This document shows, piece after piece, positions 28,496 through 33,392 of a DNA stretch of 51,631 nucleotides. Source of the stretch: Patescibacteria group bacterium (GTDB lineage Bacteria > Patescibacteriota > Patescibacteriia > UBA9934 > GWF2-40-263); NCBI GenBank assembly GCA_038065075.1, contig JBBTRQ010000014.1:1-51631 (forward strand). The letters run 5' to 3'. Position numbers and translations under genes: made by a program. Positions within the stretch are counted from its first letter, which is position 1; each line of letters begins with the position of its first letter. The notes under the pieces are model-generated. The model saw only the letters and a list, made by a program, of their open reading frames with translations. It did no database searches and was not told the origin of the DNA.

Positions 28496-28535
28496 ATGCG
28501 GACAATTTTTCGTATATACGAATTTTTGTCCGCAT
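28496..28535. repeat. Palindromic repeat, copy 1 (touching the stop of the PaaX/Cas2-like gene)
   Basis: ATGCGGACAA-TTT-TTCGTATATACGAA-TTT-TTGTCCGCAT. Confidence 0.9.
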
Positions 28536-29068
28536 TACTGTTTTCGCGCAAGATAAACCTCAACCCACTTGGTAATCTTCGTTGATCGAATGAACCCTAT
28601 CACCTCTTTGACCACGTCTCTATCTGTAGACCACACACTGCGCTGAACCTGCTTGAAACCGCAACGCTTCAAGAAATACCTCAACGCATCCCGACCGAGA
28701 TTCCCTTCGTTGGGTACATCGTAGACAACCAGACAGACCTGACTACCTGGGAGTTTCGGTCGTTCACGAATGAGGCGCTTCATTAACTCGACGCGGCCTT
28801 CGTCAGACAATTCGTAGAGCAAACCGGCCTCTGTTTTCTTCACGTGAATCAATTTCTTACGCTGGAGGTATCGCGCTCGCTCCGTAAATTTTCGATGTTC
28901 CTGATATCGTTCCTCAGCAAGTTTGTGCTCGCCTTCGTATCGATACGGGCGGTGGCGGGCCCATTGTTCAAACATCTCTCCCGCGTCACGCGCTTCATCC
29001 TCCAACCAAACCAAAAACTGCGTAACAGCCTCTCTTCCAGACTTCACCACTTTTTCCTTCGTTTCCAT
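28535..29068 (-). CDS. PaaX-like regulator (winged helix plus Cas2-like fold), CPR type
   Basis: YLQRKKLI...YELSDEG wHTH; LVVYDVP...RDALRYFLKRCGFKQVQRSVW. Confidence 0.82.
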   Translation of the reverse strand: METKEKVVKSGREAVTQFLVWLEDEARDAGEMFEQWARHRPYRYEGEHKLAEERYQEHRKFTERARYLQRKKLIHVKKTEAGLLYELSDEGRVELMKRLIRERPKLPGSQVCLVVYDVPNEGNLGRDALRYFLKRCGFKQVQRSVWSTDRDVVKEVIGFIRSTKITKWVEVYLARKQ

Positions 29069-29534: not shown

Positions 29535-29570
29535 AACAAAAACAGGCTTCACAGGAAGTCTGTTTTTGTT
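29535..29570. terminator. Bidirectional intrinsic terminator
   Basis: AACAAAAACAGGCTTC/GAAGTCTGTTTTTGTT. Confidence 0.75.
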
Positions 29571-30613
29571 TAGAGCGTCTTGAGCATTTCAACTAGTTCA
29601 TCGGCGATGTTCGTGCGAAGCTTGCTGTGCATTCGCGCGCCCAGATCTCGACGTGTCGGTTCATCACATAGAAGCGCGGTGATCGCGTCGAACAGTTGTT
29701 GCGACGTTGTTTGTCGCTGATCGAGCACGACACAGGCGTCCGCGACCATGTCCGCATTCGCCTCCTGCGGCGATTTCGGGAGCGGAATCATGACCGCCGT
29801 CTTGGAGAGCGCGGCAAGTTCAGTGATAGTCGAAAGTCCCGCTCGACACACAACAACATCGGCCACGGCCAGAGCGTCGGCCATCTCGTCGTCGATGAAC
29901 TCGCGGACGTGATGGTCGGGGTGACGCGACTCGATCGGTTTGTTTCGTCCCGTGAGGTGAATGACATTCGCTTGTTGTATGAGTCGGGATGCGATCTCAT
30001 CGATCGACTCATTGATCCACACGGATCCGGTTCCCCCACCAACGACGAGCACGGTGGGTTTGAGTTTCGAAATCTTAAACTCCTCGTAGGCTCGCTCGCG
30101 AGATCCTCGCAGGAGACTCGGACGCACTGGATTCCCCACAAGCTTCACGCGATCCCCAAGGTCATTTCGATTCCGCTCCCACGCGACTGTCACGAGATCC
30201 GCAAACGGAACCGTGAGTTTTGTCGTCTTAGTGAGTTCGACATCTTGTTTATGCACCCACACGTTCACTCCAAGAAGTTTTGCGGCGTAGACAACGGGCA
30301 CAGCCGTGTACCCACCAGCCGAAGCGACGAGATCGGGTTTTTGCGCGCTGAGAATCCTGATCGCCTTACAGAGGGCAACAAAAAACACCATCGGCGACGT
30401 AAACCATTCAAGACTAAAATATCTGGGAGCGCGAGCTGCCGGCAGGGTCAAGAACGAAATCCCCTGCTGTTCGACGACCATCCGCTCAGGCCCTCGAGAG
30501 GTGCCAACCCAAACAGCCGTGACACTTGGGTCATTCGCCCTCCACGCCTCCCACACCGCCAACAGCGGCGTGACAGGTCCCATCGTTCCTCCGCCGGTAA
30601 AGAGAATTTTCAT
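29570..30613 (-). CDS. murG: Undecaprenyl-PP-MurNAc-pentapeptide GlcNAc transferase
   Basis: TGGGTMGP, GGYTAVP, GNPVR, GGGTGS, CRAG, IPL...QEANA. Confidence 0.95.
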   Translation of the reverse strand: MKILFTGGGTMGPVTPLLAVWEAWRANDPSVTAVWVGTSRGPERMVVEQQGISFLTLPAARAPRYFSLEWFTSPMVFFVALCKAIRILSAQKPDLVASAGGYTAVPVVYAAKLLGVNVWVHKQDVELTKTTKLTVPFADLVTVAWERNRNDLGDRVKLVGNPVRPSLLRGSRERAYEEFKISKLKPTVLVVGGGTGSVWINESIDEIASRLIQQANVIHLTGRNKPIESRHPDHHVREFIDDEMADALAVADVVVCRAGLSTITELAALSKTAVMIPLPKSPQEANADMVADACVVLDQRQTTSQQLFDAITALLCDEPTRRDLGARMHSKLRTNIADELVEMLKTL

Positions 30614-30617
30614 AATG

Positions 30618-31130
30618 TTAATACTTGAAGCCTATTTCCTTCTCACCACCGAGGGGCTTCTCGTCAATTAATCGACGAATGGCATCAAACACCATACCGA
30701 ACTTCTCGTCATATTGTTTCTCGAGAAGCTCAATCTTTCTACGCAAGCCCTCATTCTCACTCAACATCTCGCGCATCTTTGTAAAGGTTCGCATGATTTG
30801 GATATTAACCTGAATAGCGCGGTCGCTATTGAGAACACTCGACAACATCGCGACCCCTTGTTCAGTGAAAACCCGGGGTGCTTTCCGAATCCCCATCTTC
30901 TCCTTTTTGGAAGTCACAATTTGTGACTTCCAAATCATCATCTCCTTCGTATCAAGTTGGAACATAAAATCCTCGGGAAATCTTGCCAGATTTCGACGAA
31001 CCGCTTGATTTAGAACTTTTGTCTTAACCCCATAAAGACTTGCCAAGTCTCGATCAACCATCACCTTCGTCCCACGAAACACAAAAATTTTGGACTCGAT
31101 CAATTCGTTTGGAATGAGATCTGCAGGCAT
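30618..31130 (-). CDS. ORF6N-domain DNA-binding protein
   Basis: RGTKVMVDRDLASLYGV.TK.LNQAVRRN..RFPEDFMFQL, SQIVTS, FTEQGVAMLSSVLNSDRAIQVNIQIMRTF, IGF tail. Confidence 0.93.
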   Translation of the reverse strand: MPADLIPNELIESKIFVFRGTKVMVDRDLASLYGVKTKVLNQAVRRNLARFPEDFMFQLDTKEMMIWKSQIVTSKKEKMGIRKAPRVFTEQGVAMLSSVLNSDRAIQVNIQIMRTFTKMREMLSENEGLRRKIELLEKQYDEKFGMVFDAIRRLIDEKPLGGEKEIGFKY

Positions 31131-31223
31131 ATGTTTTGTCTATTACTTGAGGTCACAAATTGTGACCTCAAGTTTTGCGACTCTCTCGATAACTGGATAT
31201 CACAATTTGTGATATCCAGTTAT
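30906..31223. repeat. Three perfect palindromes sharing the core TCACAA-W-TTGTGA (30906-30934, 31145-31173, 31189-31223)
   Basis: Arms of 14, 14 and 17 bp with a 1-nt centre; flanks differ between copies but each copy is perfectly self-complementary. Confidence 0.92.
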
Positions 31224-32335
31224 GCTTTTGTGCTCTTAGAGACATTCAACACCACTCCGATCGCGGCCAACGAGATTGCGAGCGAGGTGCCTCCGTAACT
31301 GATAAACGGCAGTGGCACGCCGGTGATGGGCATGAGTGCCAGCATGGAGCCGATATTCACGAACGCCTGGATCACGATCCACGCGGCAATGCCCACGACT
31401 ACGTACTTCCCGAACTGATCTGGTGCATGCTTGGCGACCCTCAGCATGCGCCAGAGGAACAGCAGAAACAACCCGATCGTCAGCGCGGCGATGAAGAAGC
31501 CCATCTCCTCGCTGATAATCGCGAAGATCGAATCGCCGGCGACTTCGGGGAGATACTGAAACTTTTGGCGTGAGTGTCCATATCCGAGTCCAAAAAATCC
31601 ACCCGATCCGATCGCCAAGAGCGCTTGGTTAATATGGTACCCAATCCCCTGTGGATCCAGTTCCGGGTGGAGAAATGTCGTGAGACGCTCGGCACGATAC
31701 GGTGAAGAGGCAATAAGGAGCCCTAGCCCTCCCAAGCCGGCAGCCATCAACCCAACGATGTACGCCACGGGAGCTCCGGCGACAAAGTACACGATGAGGG
31801 ACATGGCCGCGATGATCGCCATGGATCCTGTATCAGGCTGGAGAATGAGCAGAAGGATGATCGTTCCCAAAACGCCGACGAACGGAAGAAACCCTCCGTG
31901 GACATCGCGCACACTCTGCTTGTCTCGCACCGCAAGCCACGCCGCAAGATAAAACAAAAATGTCAGCTTCACGATTTCCGATGGCTGAAGAGAGAAGACT
32001 CCGCCGATCGAAATCCATGAGTGCGCGGTACCGATGCCCGCAGAAAGTCCTGGGATGAACACGAGCACCAAAAGGACAATCGAGAGGATCAATAAATTCC
32101 ACGCGTGCTTGCGCCAAAAGGTGTACGGGATTTTCGAAAATGCAATGAGGGCTCCAATACCCGGCAGGAGACCGAAAATGATTTGGTGTTTTACAAAGTA
32201 GTATGAGTCGGCAAACTCCGCGTACCCACTGGGAGCGGACGCGGAAAGCAGCATGACCAGCCCAAAGAGGACGATCGTGCCGACGATCAGTAGGAGAAGA
32301 TAATCGACGGAGCCTGATGTTGAGGTGCGTCCCAT
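31220..32335 (-). CDS. ftsW: SEDS-family peptidoglycan polymerase FtsW
   Basis: LQPSEIVK, QPDTG, GYH...AIGSGG, LPEVAGDSIF, TGVPLPFISYGG; between mraY and murG. Confidence 0.94.
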   Translation of the reverse strand: MGRTSTSGSVDYLLLLIVGTIVLFGLVMLLSASAPSGYAEFADSYYFVKHQIIFGLLPGIGALIAFSKIPYTFWRKHAWNLLILSIVLLVLVFIPGLSAGIGTAHSWISIGGVFSLQPSEIVKLTFLFYLAAWLAVRDKQSVRDVHGGFLPFVGVLGTIILLLILQPDTGSMAIIAAMSLIVYFVAGAPVAYIVGLMAAGLGGLGLLIASSPYRAERLTTFLHPELDPQGIGYHINQALLAIGSGGFFGLGYGHSRQKFQYLPEVAGDSIFAIISEEMGFFIAALTIGLFLLFLWRMLRVAKHAPDQFGKYVVVGIAAWIVIQAFVNIGSMLALMPITGVPLPFISYGGTSLAISLAAIGVVLNVSKSTKA

Positions 32336-32336
32336 G

Positions 32337-33392
32337 TTAGGCAAGCGCATCAAAGAGCACGAGCGATACGCCAACGGCGGCGGCGACCATGGAGATGACC
32401 CAGAACCGCATCACGATCTGGGGCTCCGGCCAGCCGATCGCCTCAAGATGGTGATGAATCGGCGAGGATTTGAAGAGCCGCCTGTGGAAGAGTTTGCGTG
32501 CGCCGATTTGAACGATGACAGAAAGAGACTCAATGACAAACACAAATCCGATGATCGGCAAGAAGATAGCCGAGTTCGTGAGCATGGCGACGATGCCCAG
32601 CGTCACCCCCAGAGACATCGCCCCCGTGTCGCCCATAAAAAAACGCGCTGGGTGGATGTTGAACCAAAGGAACGCGAGAAGGGCTCCCAGGATCACTCCG
32701 CAAAACACCGCGAGATCGTAGCGACCCTGCGCAAAGGCAATGACCGCGTAGGCACCAAACGACGTGAGGAGCGTGCCGCCGGCAAGGCCGTCGAGTCCGT
32801 CAGATTCGTTCACCGAAAAGGCAGTTGCCACGATCACCAAGATAAAAACCGGGACATACCACAGGCCAAGATTGAAGTCGCCGATAAATGGAATGTGCAA
32901 AAGATCCCAATCCAACTTCACCCGGAACCACCACGCGCCCACGACGGCGATCGCGGTATAGATGAGAAGTCGATGGCGCATGCGCAGTCCCCCGCCCTTT
33001 GGACCAATGCCGCGAACATTGAAGTAGTCATCGACGAAGCCCACAATAGCCGAGGCGATCAGCGCCCCCAAAGGCAAGAGCGTTTCAGACCGACTCAAAA
33101 AGTTTAATCGCGCCCAGACAGACCCTTCCGCAAGGAACGGCGTGACGTGATAGAACACAACAGCCAACACAAGAACCGTTCCCCAAATCAGAATCCCTCC
33201 CATCGTCGGCGTTCCTCGTTTTTTCTCGTGAAGCTTGGCGAAGATGGGGGCGTCTCCCTCTGTCCGGATCACTTTTCCCATCTTCCACTCTTGCAAGAGA
33301 CGGATAAGGAGTGGCGCCCAGGCAAACGCCACAACGAACGCGATGGCGGAAAGGAGCAAGACCCGGACGATTTCGAATGATTCGAGGGTCAT
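32337..33392 (-). CDS. mraY: Phospho-MurNAc-pentapeptide transferase
   Basis: GTPTMGG, DDY, NESDGLDGL, FMGDTG, PIHHH. Confidence 0.96.
   Translation of the reverse strand: MTLESFEIVRVLLLSAIAFVVAFAWAPLLIRLLQEWKMGKVIRTEGDAPIFAKLHEKKRGTPTMGGILIWGTVLVLAVVFYHVTPFLAEGSVWARLNFLSRSETLLPLGALIASAIVGFVDDYFNVRGIGPKGGGLRMRHRLLIYTAIAVVGAWWFRVKLDWDLLHIPFIGDFNLGLWYVPVFILVIVATAFSVNESDGLDGLAGGTLLTSFGAYAVIAFAQGRYDLAVFCGVILGALLAFLWFNIHPARFFMGDTGAMSLGVTLGIVAMLTNSAIFLPIIGFVFVIESLSVIVQIGARKLFHRRLFKSSPIHHHLEAIGWPEPQIVMRFWVISMVAAAVGVSLVLFDALA

What the first reader, a model, noticed from the sequence alone, without database searches (positions are those of the whole stretch)
30618..31223. ORF6N gene whose conserved motif is a DNA palindrome, with two variant palindromes upstream
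Seen: codons for WKSQIVTSK form a perfect palindrome (30906-30934). Two more perfect palindromes with the same TCACAA-W-TTGTGA core lie in the ~90-bp gap upstream (31145-31173, 31189-31223). Their flanks differ, yet each is fully self-complementary, which implies compensatory change or strand-templated copying. Read in the motif frame they give LRSQFVTSS and WISQIVISS, plausible alternative versions of the same protein motif. Neither is in frame with the gene. Inverting the coding palindrome changes only I to F. The unit interrupts the normally adjacent ftsW-murG pair, and the third palindrome overlaps the ftsW stop. Inference: either an autoregulator whose binding site is also written into its own coding sequence, or silent donor cassettes that diversify the motif by gene conversion, or the ends of a minimal mobile unit.
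Basis: partly seen in the sequence, partly recalled or inferred. Interest (0 to 1): 0.82.

Follow-up and report, generated by a model that had tools for sequence, protein, structure and literature searches.

The report
Regulator gene containing its own operator
A small DNA-binding protein gene wedged between two cell-wall genes carries, inside its own coding sequence and twice upstream, the palindromic DNA site that the protein itself most likely binds, and across hundreds of relatives this site and the protein's reading helix change together in a simple code.

Summary
In detail: there are three perfect odd palindromes with the core TCACAAWTTGTGA. One lies in the ORF6N gene and two lie in the 89-nt gap upstream. 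These are the only exact copies in the 1.09-Mb genome.

The palindrome is a family-wide DNA feature. In 88 genes from 80 loci, 12.45 of 14 arm pairs are complementary, against 5.83 expected from the same proteins with resampled codons. It persists when it is read in another frame.

Mismatches show no G:T preference over A:C, so the constraint is on DNA, not RNA.

Base 4 of each half-site tracks residue 42 of a predicted helix. A goes with Gln in 62 of 64 genes, C with Arg/Lys in 23 of 23, and G with Glu in 29 of 32. This holds in independent lineages and in the frame-shifted subfamily.

Most likely the palindrome is the protein's own binding site. I read the window's three cognate copies as an autoregulatory operator set, but that is inferred. 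Binding and repression are untested.

The donor-cassette and mobile-end readings are not supported. Sister genomes carry the same insertion without upstream palindromes.

I found no published description.

The parts
30618..31130 (-). ORF6N gene, 170 aa. The model has a winged-helix-like N-terminal domain (about residues 13-99) followed by long C-terminal helices (103-155).
   Evidence: ORF. Pfam PF10543 at E 5.7e-32. PADLOC PDC-S05 at 4e-58. AF2 model with pLDDT 73.6.
30906..30934 (.). Internal operator-like palindrome, 14+1+14, core TCACAA-A-TTGTGA on the coding strand. It encodes W67-K75 (WKSQIVTSK).
   Evidence: The same position is palindromic in 85 of 88 genes (at least 11 of 14 pairs) in the first set and in 37 of 39 in the second set.
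31145..31173 (.). Upstream palindrome 2, 14+1+14, with its near edge 14 nt and its far edge 43 nt upstream of the ATG (minus strand). It has the cognate core TCACAA and G at arm position 7. It is letter for letter the internal palindrome of 'LRSQFVTSS-type' ORF6N genes of other organisms.
   Evidence: Identical stretch in L190 and L183. Contig depth of 157-818 at 31151-31181 against about 10 elsewhere, in four metagenome runs.
31189..31223 (.). Upstream palindrome 3, 17+1+17, with the cognate core TCACAA but A at arm position 7. It overlaps the ftsW stop codon (31220-31222).
30993..31022 (-). Codons for the predicted recognition helix, residues 37-46. K38 is at 31017-31019, V39 at 31014-31016 and Q42 at 31005-31007.
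   Evidence: Helix H37-46 in the model. These residues carry the highest mutual information with half-site bases 4, 5 and 7.
31220..32374 (-). ftsW, the upstream neighbour on the same strand.
   Evidence: PF01098 at 7.3e-95.
29570..30613 (-). murG, the downstream neighbour on the same strand. Its ATG lies 4 nt after the ORF6N stop codon.
   Evidence: PF03033 and PF04101; sequence.

Best explanation
The palindrome is the cognate DNA-binding site of the ORF6N protein, placed inside the gene that encodes it.

The protein has a winged-helix-like domain followed by long helices. It most likely binds as a symmetric dimer, with helix 37-46 reading each half-site (T6 N5 N4 C3 A2 A1 around a W centre). 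Residue 42 reads base pair 4, residue 39 reads base pairs 4/5, and residue 38 reads base pair 7. The site sits in codons for a structurally permissive stretch (the end of helix 61-70 plus a low-confidence loop), so the DNA constraint can override the protein sequence there.

In this window the protein is K38/V39/Q42, the 'TCACAA' type. All three palindromes carry that core, and no other exact copy exists in the genome. I therefore read the three sites as one self-contained, negatively autoregulated module: two operators in front of the gene and one inside it, possibly looped or acting as roadblocks. An operator inside the ORF travels with a gene that is inserted, without a promoter of its own, into foreign operons.

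What is shown: palindrome conservation beyond coding needs, a DNA-level rather than RNA-level constraint, and residue-base covariation. What is inferred: physical binding, the dimer, and repression.
For: 1. Conservation beyond coding. In 88 genes, arm positions 2-13 are Watson-Crick in 66-88 of 88. The mean is 12.45 of 14 pairs, against 5.83 when the same proteins are re-coded with the family's codon usage; a fraction of 0.0017 of resamples reach the observed value. This was replicated in 39 genes of a second sample, of which 37 have at least 11 of 14 pairs, and in 8 distant plasmid genes.

2. The same DNA palindrome is read one base out of register in a subfamily (ELVTNCDRF instead of LRSQFVTSS).

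3. Code. In 121 distinct genes, base 4 = A goes with Gln42 in 62 of 64, C with Arg/Lys in 23 of 23, and G with Glu in 29 of 32. The mutual information is 1.25 bits, the top of all base-by-residue pairs outside residues 62-82; the next pairs involve residues 39, 38 and 43 of the same helix. The pairings match classical preferences (Gln-A, Arg/Lys-G, Glu-C; recalled).

4. Tree-aware test. The core class changes 24 times, residue 42 changes 21 times, and the joint state changes 24 times. Independent pairs for CG/Glu go 7 the same way, 0 opposite, 2 unchanged (p 0.016); for GC/Arg 6/0/1 (p 0.03); for CA/Gln 5/0/2 (p 0.06).

5. The code holds in frame-shifted genes, where the encoded residues differ (L053 and L066 TCACAA with V/Q; L026 and L214 TCGCAA with R/E; L158 TCGAAA with R/E). 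The link is therefore to bases, not to an intramolecular contact.

6. The two Gln42 genes whose internal core is TCGCAA (L039, L081) each have an upstream TCACAA site. L186, whose internal palindrome has decayed (8 of 14 pairs), has a cognate site at -140.

7. Core-pattern sites in the 200 nt upstream: 21, in 17 of 123 genes, against about 0.4 expected (my arithmetic); 8 of the 21 lie at -50 to -63.

8. The fold is nearest to DNA-binding winged helices (Dachshund Z 6.4, Ski 5.7, pSK1 Par DNA-binding domain 4.5, Mbp1 4.4, RacA 3.7), and no nuclease fold is listed.

9. The genome holds one ORF6N gene and only these three exact sites.
Against: No binding, dimerisation or repression was tested. 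The homodimer prediction could not be run.

The three window palindromes differ at arm positions 7-13, yet each is perfectly self-complementary. A dimer reading only the shared core does not require that (one search shows the window's upstream arms match its internal arm no better than they match other genes' arms).

Of the 21 upstream sites, 10 have a non-cognate base 4. For three such genes (in L045, L073 and L078) no paralogue of matching type was found in the assemblies.

Most genes (106 of 123) have only the internal site, which is an unusual place for a sole operator. Bound there, the protein could also impede transcription of the essential murG downstream.

No sigma-70-like promoter was found in the gap.

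Fold-match Z scores are all under 8, a range the tool calls common.
Confidence: 0.6

Rival explanations
1. The protein does bind the palindrome, but the purpose is not autoregulation. The in-gene site would be a nucleation or centromere-like site for a one-gene DNA-handling module (partition, anchoring or plasmid maintenance), or part of an anti-phage function. The site is kept inside the ORF so that site and protein are inherited together.
For: Two Segatella copri plasmids of 2,955 and 4,140 bp carry only a replication gene and an ORF6N gene, with a palindrome at the same gene position. The fold list includes the pSK1 Par DNA-binding domain on centromere DNA (Z 4.5, rmsd 2.2 over 53 residues) and RacA (Z 3.7), both N-terminal DNA binders with coiled coils (their architecture is recalled). 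The PADLOC candidate defence family PDC-S05 matches at 4e-58. A preprint reports about 1000-fold lower plating of T7 and T5 for one PDC-S05 representative (passages read). Tandem arrays of paralogues have different core types (L010 with 4, L026 with 5, L037 with 3).
Against: Chromosomal copies sit singly between unrelated housekeeping genes, where a centromere has no obvious role. The tested PDC-S05 gene is described as having a RhuM domain; 5 longer ORF6N relatives scanned here have none, so it may not be a close relative, and the preprint's supplement was not seen. The family is rare in phage records (4 of 50,697). Upstream sites cluster at -50 to -63, which looks like operators.
Confidence: 0.2
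2. The functional form is a DNA hairpin or cruciform, not the linear duplex. The arms must pair with each other, and the protein (or a host enzyme) recognises the extruded stem-loop, for recombination, replication or mobility of the gene.
For: Arm positions that vary between sites stay complementary within each site, including the three sites of this one genome. Hairpin free energies as single-stranded DNA are -13.3, -13.9 and -14.7 kcal/mol, with z from -6 to -9. Innermost pair 1 is relaxed (62 of 88), as expected of a loop. G:T and A:C mismatches are about equal (21 against 26), as expected if both strands must pair. L081 and L039 changed base 4 on both arms while the protein kept Gln42. Partial duplications break at the palindrome (L069, L079, L042). 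Residue-base covariation would also arise if a monomer read a stem.
Against: Arm bases 2, 3, 6, 9, 10 and 12 are conserved as sequence, also in non-coding upstream copies, which fits readout of a duplex. The centre is A or T in 87 of 88, and CAAWTTG is kept. No nuclease or recombinase fold or family was found. Perfect symmetry can also come from template-switch correction between arms (recalled mechanism). 29-35-nt palindromes extrude poorly (recalled).
Confidence: 0.12
3. The palindrome acts as an RNA hairpin in the mRNA (processing, stability or translation control).
For: A 13-15-bp stem would form in the transcript. The four frame-shifted genes of the first set keep a G:T (G:U) pair at arm position 9.
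Against: Among 73 mismatches at arm positions 2-13, G:T (21) is no commoner than A:C (26), whereas an RNA stem tolerates G:U. There is no Rfam match (the only row is mir-498, 24.3 bits against a gathering score of 85). Non-coding copies upstream and the covariation with a DNA-binding helix are not expected for an RNA element.
Confidence: 0.03
4. The upstream palindromes are silent donor cassettes that diversify the SQxVTS motif by gene conversion, or they are the inverted-repeat ends of a minimal transposable unit.
For: Their in-frame readings (LRSQFVTSS, WISQIVISS) are real variants in homologues. The locus is mosaic among sister species: G005 carries an 'LRSQSVTSS...GGRRY' middle between flanks like those of G000. 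The gene is a clean insertion into ftsW-murG.
Against: Upstream copies occur at 17 of 123 genes only. G001, G002 and G005 have the same insertion without them, and in G002 the insert is the ORF plus 6 nt. There is no palindrome at the gene's 3' end. No variant or joint with adequate flank was seen at 30906-30934 in contigs of four runs, which is weak evidence because contigs hide minor alleles. The code explains the sites as binding sites.
Confidence: 0.05

Closest known systems
Autoregulators and initiators whose binding sites lie in their own coding sequence (E. coli purR intragenic operator; phage lambda O protein with the ori-lambda iterons inside gene O; parS inside parB/spo0J). All are recalled, not retrieved here.
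   Same: A sequence-specific DNA-binding protein whose cis site sits inside the ORF that encodes it. In lambdoid phages the site and the N-terminal domain co-vary between phages (recalled).
   Different: Here the arrangement is universal for a family of thousands of stand-alone genes and sits at one fixed codon position. The site is a single 27-31-bp perfect palindrome, and it is kept through compensatory changes that alter the protein and even the reading frame. No replication or purine role is implied.
MerR-like winged-helix plus coiled-coil DNA binders (pSK1 Par, RacA, BldC, MerR family)
   Same: An N-terminal winged HTH followed by a long helix, binding palindromic or repeated sites. These appear in the fold list at Z 3.2-4.5 with rmsd 2.2-3.0 over 51-56 residues.
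   Different: There is no sequence-family match (Pfam gives only ORF6N; no PDB sequence match). The Z scores are low. Their sites lie outside the coding sequence (recalled).
KilA-N / APSES / Rha / phage anti-repressor superfamily
   Same: PF10543 ORF6N belongs with these. PHROGs labels relatives 'anti-repressor' (phrog_4792, 1.3e-29). The Mbp1 DNA-binding domain matches at Z 4.4.
   Different: This 170-aa form is chromosomal and solitary and is almost absent from phage records (4 of 50,697). No anti-repressor partner is evident. In the papers I searched, none describes a DNA target for ORF6N.
PADLOC candidate defence gene PDC-S05
   Same: Full-length HMM match (PDLC04856, residues 4-168 on profile 5-175 of 177, E 4e-58).
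   Different: The defence activity reported is for one representative described with a RhuM domain (passages only). Nothing is said there about a palindrome or DNA binding. It is not tested for this gene.
Controller (C) proteins of restriction-modification systems with palindromic C-boxes (recalled)
   Same: Small dimeric DNA binders with co-evolving palindromic operators that travel with a mobile gene module. Specificity classes avoid cross-talk.
   Different: C-boxes lie upstream of the gene, not inside it, and the fold is different (HTH of the Xre type, recalled).

Membership tests
Pfam PF10543 ORF6N | Profile match above the gathering score | tested here: met
   110.3 bits against a cut-off of 27.8, E 5.7e-32, residues 13-99 on profile 1-86 of 86.
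PADLOC PDC-S05 (candidate defence) | Match to the family's HMMs | tested here: met
   PDLC04856 at 4e-58, PDLC04869 at 1.4e-56, PDLC04849 at 7.4e-38.
PADLOC PDC-S05 (candidate defence) | Protects against phage | not testable with these tools
   There is only a preprint's assay of another representative (passages). Its supplement on domains was not seen.
Autoregulator with operator in its own gene | A cognate site for the protein lies in or next to its gene | tested here: met
   Met by comparison only. Residue 42 against base 4: 62 of 64, 23 of 23, 29 of 32. The pattern is tree-aware and frame-independent. All 3 window sites are of the type predicted for Q42.
Autoregulator with operator in its own gene | The protein binds the site and lowers its own expression | not testable with these tools
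   Needs EMSA or ChIP and reporter assays.
Symmetric homodimeric DNA binder | Forms a dimer | not tested
The model has long helices at 103-155 with low confidence after residue 139.
MerR-like winged HTH (Par/RacA/MerR) | Fold match clearly above background and a sequence-family match | tested here: inconclusive
   Z 3.2-4.5, under the tool's caution line of 8. There is no Pfam MerR hit at E 0.01 or below.
KilA-N / APSES fold | Structural similarity to the APSES DNA-binding domain | tested here: inconclusive
   Mbp1 (1bm8) at Z 4.4, rmsd 3.3 over 77 residues.
Inverted-repeat-bounded mobile element | Related repeats at both ends of the inserted unit | tested here: not met
   Palindromes lie only 5' of the gene, and 4 nt separate the stop codon from the murG ATG. 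Sister genomes have the insertion without them.
Gene-conversion cassette system | The expressed copy varies by copying from silent copies | tested here: inconclusive
   No variant at 30906-30934 in contigs of 4 runs. Only contigs were available, no raw reads. Upstream copies are absent at 106 of 123 genes.
Known structured RNA (Rfam 15) | Covariance-model match at the gathering score | tested here: not met
   The only row is mir-498 at 24.3 bits against a gathering score of 85.

The most novel reading that the evidence does not exclude
ORF6N stand-alone genes are one-ORF modules in which a DNA-binding protein and its operator co-evolve inside the same reading frame under a near one-to-one code: residue 42 is Gln, Glu, Arg/Lys or Leu for base pair 4 being A, G, C or T, with residues 39 and 38 reading neighbouring bases.

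Specificity switches would start in the DNA. A change in one arm is copied to the other arm (the L081 and L039 states), and the protein follows. This would generate families of mutually orthogonal binders, seen as tandem arrays of different types. An in-frame operator would let a promoter-less gene regulate itself wherever it lands. It would also make the family a natural, programmable set of orthogonal repressor/operator pairs, and possibly the working principle of the PDC-S05 candidate defence gene.
Probability: 0.35. Interest if true: 0.9.

Novelty: new variant of a known kind. Interest (0 to 1): 0.8.

Why it matters
This is a clear natural case in which a DNA-level constraint dominates a coding sequence. 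The palindrome is better conserved than the peptide it encodes, and it survives a change of reading frame.

The residue-base code is simple enough to be tested by three point mutations. It gives a function (sequence-specific DNA binding, with a named recognition helix and target) to a very large, uncharacterised family that defence-system finders already flag.

It also suggests how a promoter-less gene can carry its own control element into any operon. And it offers a set of orthogonal protein/operator pairs for engineering.

Tried and rejected
- The search of earlier findings was not open.
Five of these hand-ins met a full queue; the others fell inside the tool's waiting time. The dimer is therefore inferred from site symmetry only.
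- Sequence search of the PDB with the family profile gave 0 matches at E up to 1. Foldseek against the PDB gave nothing at E 0.001 or below.
- NCBIfam: no family.
- Rfam: nothing credible.
- sigma-70 promoter scan of 30400-31500: 0 sites. One terminator-like call sits on the plus strand at palindrome 3, opposite to the genes, and was ignored.
- Read-level test of inversion or allele exchange: only Logan contigs were available. No variant was listed at the palindromes. The two 'joints' have sides of 25-31 nt at 85% likeness and look like other organisms' ORF6N genes. This cannot exclude minor variants.
- Scan of viral contigs for AGGTCACAAWTTGTGACCT: 42 loci. 13 sites lie inside ORF6N genes. 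The other 29 are intergenic, next to unrelated genes (gp32, sigma factors, Hsp20, HNH), and many are flanked by A- and T-runs. I take them for ordinary terminators, not phage targets.
- Cross-regulation by paralogues as an explanation for non-cognate upstream sites: a matching paralogue exists for L069 (same locus) and L039 (L054, same assembly). None was found for L045, L073 or L078, whose assemblies may be incomplete.
- Outer arms of upstream sites match their own gene's internal arm only slightly better than other genes' arms (5.14 against 4.48 of 7), and not in the window.
- Centre A/T flips 27 times on an 88-tip tree, which is comparable with conservative K/R or D/E columns. This is no evidence for active inversion.
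- Neighbour orientation is mixed (25 of 65 loci are co-directional on both sides), so 'always inside operons' is not a rule.
- Literature: 'ORF6N' is in 12 papers (10 listed; I read passages of two). 'KilA-N' + 'palindrome' + 'coding sequence' gave 0 papers. 'own coding sequence' / 'palindrome' / 'autoregulation' listed 15 papers, none relevant by title or abstract start.
Full report
**What is in the window.** The minus strand carries mraY, ftsW (31220-32374), a 170-aa ORF (30618-31130) and murG (29570-30613). The 170-aa ORF is PF10543 ORF6N (E 5.7e-32) and is the only such gene in the 1.09-Mb genome.

Three perfect odd palindromes are present exactly as described: 30906-30934 (14+1+14, inside the ORF), 31145-31173 (14+1+14) and 31189-31223 (17+1+17, overlapping the ftsW stop codon). 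Their shared core TCACAAWTTGTGA occurs 3 times against 0.07 expected, and 0 of 100 shuffles reach 3. It occurs nowhere else exactly in the genome.

**The palindrome is a property of the family, at the DNA level.** A scan of one genome per species found at least 602 encoding stretches, and the best 80 loci were kept.

I located 88 full genes in these loci plus the window with a profile and centred on the aligned Gln codon. The results are:
- Arm positions 2-13 are Watson-Crick in 66-88 of 88 genes.
- Positions 14-15 pair in 51-54 of 88.
- Positions 16-18 pair in 12-17 of 88, and positions 19-20 in 24-27 of 88.
- 85 of 88 genes have at least 11 of 14 pairs, and 21 are perfect.

Re-coding the same proteins with the family's own codon usage gives a mean of 5.83 of 14 pairs, against 12.45 observed. 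A fraction of 0.0017 of resamples reach the observed value.

The core varies by paired changes that alter the protein: TCACAA/TTGTGA (S..V), TCGCAA/TTGCGA (S..A), TGCCAA/TTGGCA (C..G) and TTCCAA/TTGGAA (F..G). In a sister species the palindrome is 18+1+18 and forces Pro where Ser is otherwise nearly invariant (WVSQIVIPN).

In four genes of the first set, three of the second, and three plasmid genes, the same DNA palindrome is read one base out of register, giving ELVTNCDRF-like peptides.

A second, independent sample (mostly Bacteroidota, where PF10543 is present in 62 of 201 genomes) gave 37 of 39 genes with at least 11 of 14 pairs. Eight plasmid genes at 36-48% identity have 8-12 of 12 pairs at the same place, some with a different inner core (TCGAAA, ATCAAA).

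**DNA, not RNA.** Among 73 mismatches at arm positions 2-13, G:T (21) is no commoner than A:C (26), whereas an RNA stem would favour G:U. Rfam gives nothing credible.

**The decisive result is a residue-base code.** I computed mutual information between each half-site base and each protein column, leaving out residues 62-82, which the palindrome encodes or adjoins. The top pairs are base 4 with residue 42 (1.25 bits), base 4 with residue 39 (1.11), base 5 with residues 42 and 39, and base 7 with residue 38 (0.62). All of these residues lie in one predicted helix, 37-46.

In 121 distinct genes:
- Base 4 = A goes with Gln42 in 62 of 64.
- Base 4 = C goes with Arg or Lys in 23 of 23.
- Base 4 = G goes with Glu42 in 29 of 32, usually with Arg39.
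- Base 7 = G goes with Lys38 in 61 of 74.
- Base 7 = A goes with Arg38 in 28 of 46.

One paralogue with TTTCAA has Leu42.

On a tree built without the palindrome columns, the core class changes 24 times, residue 42 changes 21 times, and the joint state changes only 24 times. Phylogenetically independent pairs go the same way 5-7 times and never the opposite way (p 0.016-0.06).

The new genes of the second sample repeat the code: CA with Gln in 12 of 12 scored (one gap), CG with Arg/Glu in 12 of 12, and AC or GC with Arg in 4 of 4. All 8 distant plasmid genes fit.

The frame-shifted genes obey the same code although they encode different residues there. The correlation is therefore with the bases, not with an intramolecular contact to residues 69/72.

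The exceptions are informative. L039 and L081 have Gln42 but an internal TCGCAA, and each has an upstream TCACAA site. L186 has a decayed internal palindrome and a cognate site at -140.

**Upstream copies.** Core-pattern sites occur 21 times in the 200 nt upstream of 17 of 123 genes, against about 0.4 expected by my arithmetic. There are 6 in the 210 nt downstream. Eight of the 21 upstream sites lie at -50 to -63. Eleven have the cognate base 4 and ten do not. For two of the non-cognate cases a paralogue of the matching type is present (L069, L039/L054); for three, none was found.

The window's protein is K38/V39/Q42, and all three of its sites are TCACAA. Base 7 is the expected G in two of the three sites.

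**Structure.** The AF2 model (pLDDT 73.6) has strands and helices typical of a winged helix up to residue 100, then long helices at 103-155. The palindrome encodes the end of helix 61-70 and a low-confidence stretch (block 71-80, mean pLDDT 59).

The nearest folds are DNA-binding winged helices: Dachshund Z 6.4, Ski 5.7, pSK1 Par DNA-binding domain on DNA 4.5, Mbp1 4.4, and RacA and MerR-type 3.2-3.7. All are below the tool's caution line of Z 8, and no nuclease appears among the rows.

**Genomic context.** Within the genus, ftsW and murG are 1-18 nt apart in G003, G004 and G007. They hold an ORF6N gene in G000, G001, G002 and G005.
- In G002 the insert is the ORF plus 6 nt.
- G001 has a further ORF with a Nudix-box-like motif (seen by eye, not scanned).
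- G005's gene has a different middle segment.
- Only G000 has the upstream palindromes.

Elsewhere the gene sits between unrelated housekeeping genes, for example parE-parC, sdhA-sdhB and dnaK. It sometimes lies in type I restriction loci or next to integrases or IS200 transposases (144 flanking ORFs scanned). Neighbour orientation is mixed. Tandem arrays of 2-5 paralogues carry different core types.

The family matches the PADLOC candidate PDC-S05 (4e-58). PHROGs labels relatives as anti-repressors. The family is rare in phage records (4 of 50,697) and present on 25 plasmids, including two that consist of a replication gene and ORF6N alone.

A preprint reports phage protection by one PDC-S05 representative said to carry a RhuM domain (passages read; supplement not seen). 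Five longer ORF6N relatives here have no such domain, so the relevance of that assay is uncertain.

**Interpretation.** The evidence supports the palindrome being the protein's cognate site, read by helix 37-46, most simply by a symmetric dimer on duplex DNA. Placing the site in a permissive loop-coding stretch keeps protein and operator together in a gene that is repeatedly inserted with almost no flanking DNA.

In this window, two extra cognate sites directly upstream and no other target in the genome point to autoregulation. Binding, the oligomeric state and the regulatory outcome are all inferred.

**What remains unexplained.** The window's three sites differ at arm positions 7-13, yet each is perfectly self-complementary. 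Palindrome 2 is identical to the internal site of LRSQFVTSS-type genes of other organisms: L190 and L183, and a depth of 157-818 over 31151-31181 against about 10 elsewhere in four metagenome runs.

Three explanations would account for this, and the third keeps the cruciform rival alive:
- borrowing from other alleles;
- template-switch homogenisation of the arms (a recalled mechanism);
- a requirement for the hairpin form.

L081 and L039 look like intermediates in which the DNA changed on both arms before the protein did.

**Literature.** I found no description of this arrangement. 'ORF6N' appears in 12 papers, none on a DNA target (listing; passages of two papers). 'KilA-N' + 'palindrome' + 'coding sequence' gave 0 papers. 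A broader search listed nothing relevant by title or abstract start. The comparisons to purR, lambda O/ori, parS and C-proteins are from recall.

One locus (L082) lies in a genome flagged as unpublished. It is 1 of the 88 genes in the counts, and no claim depends on it.

Noticed in passing
L158 (NZ_CP152354.1, 2,955 bp) and L159 (NZ_CP152486.1, 4,140 bp): Two Segatella copri plasmids are annotated with only a replication initiation gene and an ORF6N gene. Each ORF6N gene has a palindrome at the family position but with a different inner core (TCGAAA, ATCAAA), read in the shifted frame.
   Followed up: partly
L010 1152-3522; L026 1068-4383; L037 944-2669; L072 2000-3507: Tandem arrays of 2-5 ORF6N paralogues, each with its own palindrome and often a different core type (for example L010: TCGCAT, TGCCAA, TGCCAA, TCGCAA).
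   Followed up: partly
L081 and L039 (internal site and upstream site): The internal palindrome has G at base 4 on both arms, while the protein keeps Gln42 and an upstream site keeps TCACAA with the same outer arms. This looks like an intermediate of a specificity switch.
   Followed up: partly
L202 (G247:C2), gene on the minus strand: A 305-aa paralogue with core TTTCAA and Leu at residue 42. This may be a fourth letter of the code (T with Leu), but it rests on a single case.
   Followed up: no
L087 (G001), between ftsW and ORF6N: A further ORF of about 165 aa with a Nudix-box-like motif (seen by eye) sits in the same ftsW-murG gap upstream of the ORF6N gene. It was not scanned against Pfam.
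   Followed up: no
window 28535-29068 (minus strand): A 177-aa protein with a PaaX central Cas2-like domain (PF20803, 2.2e-10) and a weak Cas2 match below the cut-off, two genes downstream of murG.
   Followed up: no
L116-L157 (viral contigs): 29 of 42 exact copies of the 19-mer AGGTCACAAWTTGTGACCT in IMG/VR lie outside ORF6N genes. They are intergenic, next to unrelated genes, and many sit between A- and T-runs like bidirectional terminators. L138 is a full LRSQFVTSS-type palindrome with no ORF6N gene within 700 nt.
   Followed up: partly
Bacteroidota genomes: Many PF10543 matches are fragments or carry in-frame stops (for example profile ranges 2-46, 39-86, 62-86). Decayed copies of this gene seem common.
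   Followed up: no
window 31120-31181 in runs X1, X3, X4, X6: Assemblies break at palindrome 2: X1 contigs end at 31174 and start at 31146. The site is shared with many other organisms in the same groundwater samples, so it acts as an assembly-graph repeat.
   Followed up: no
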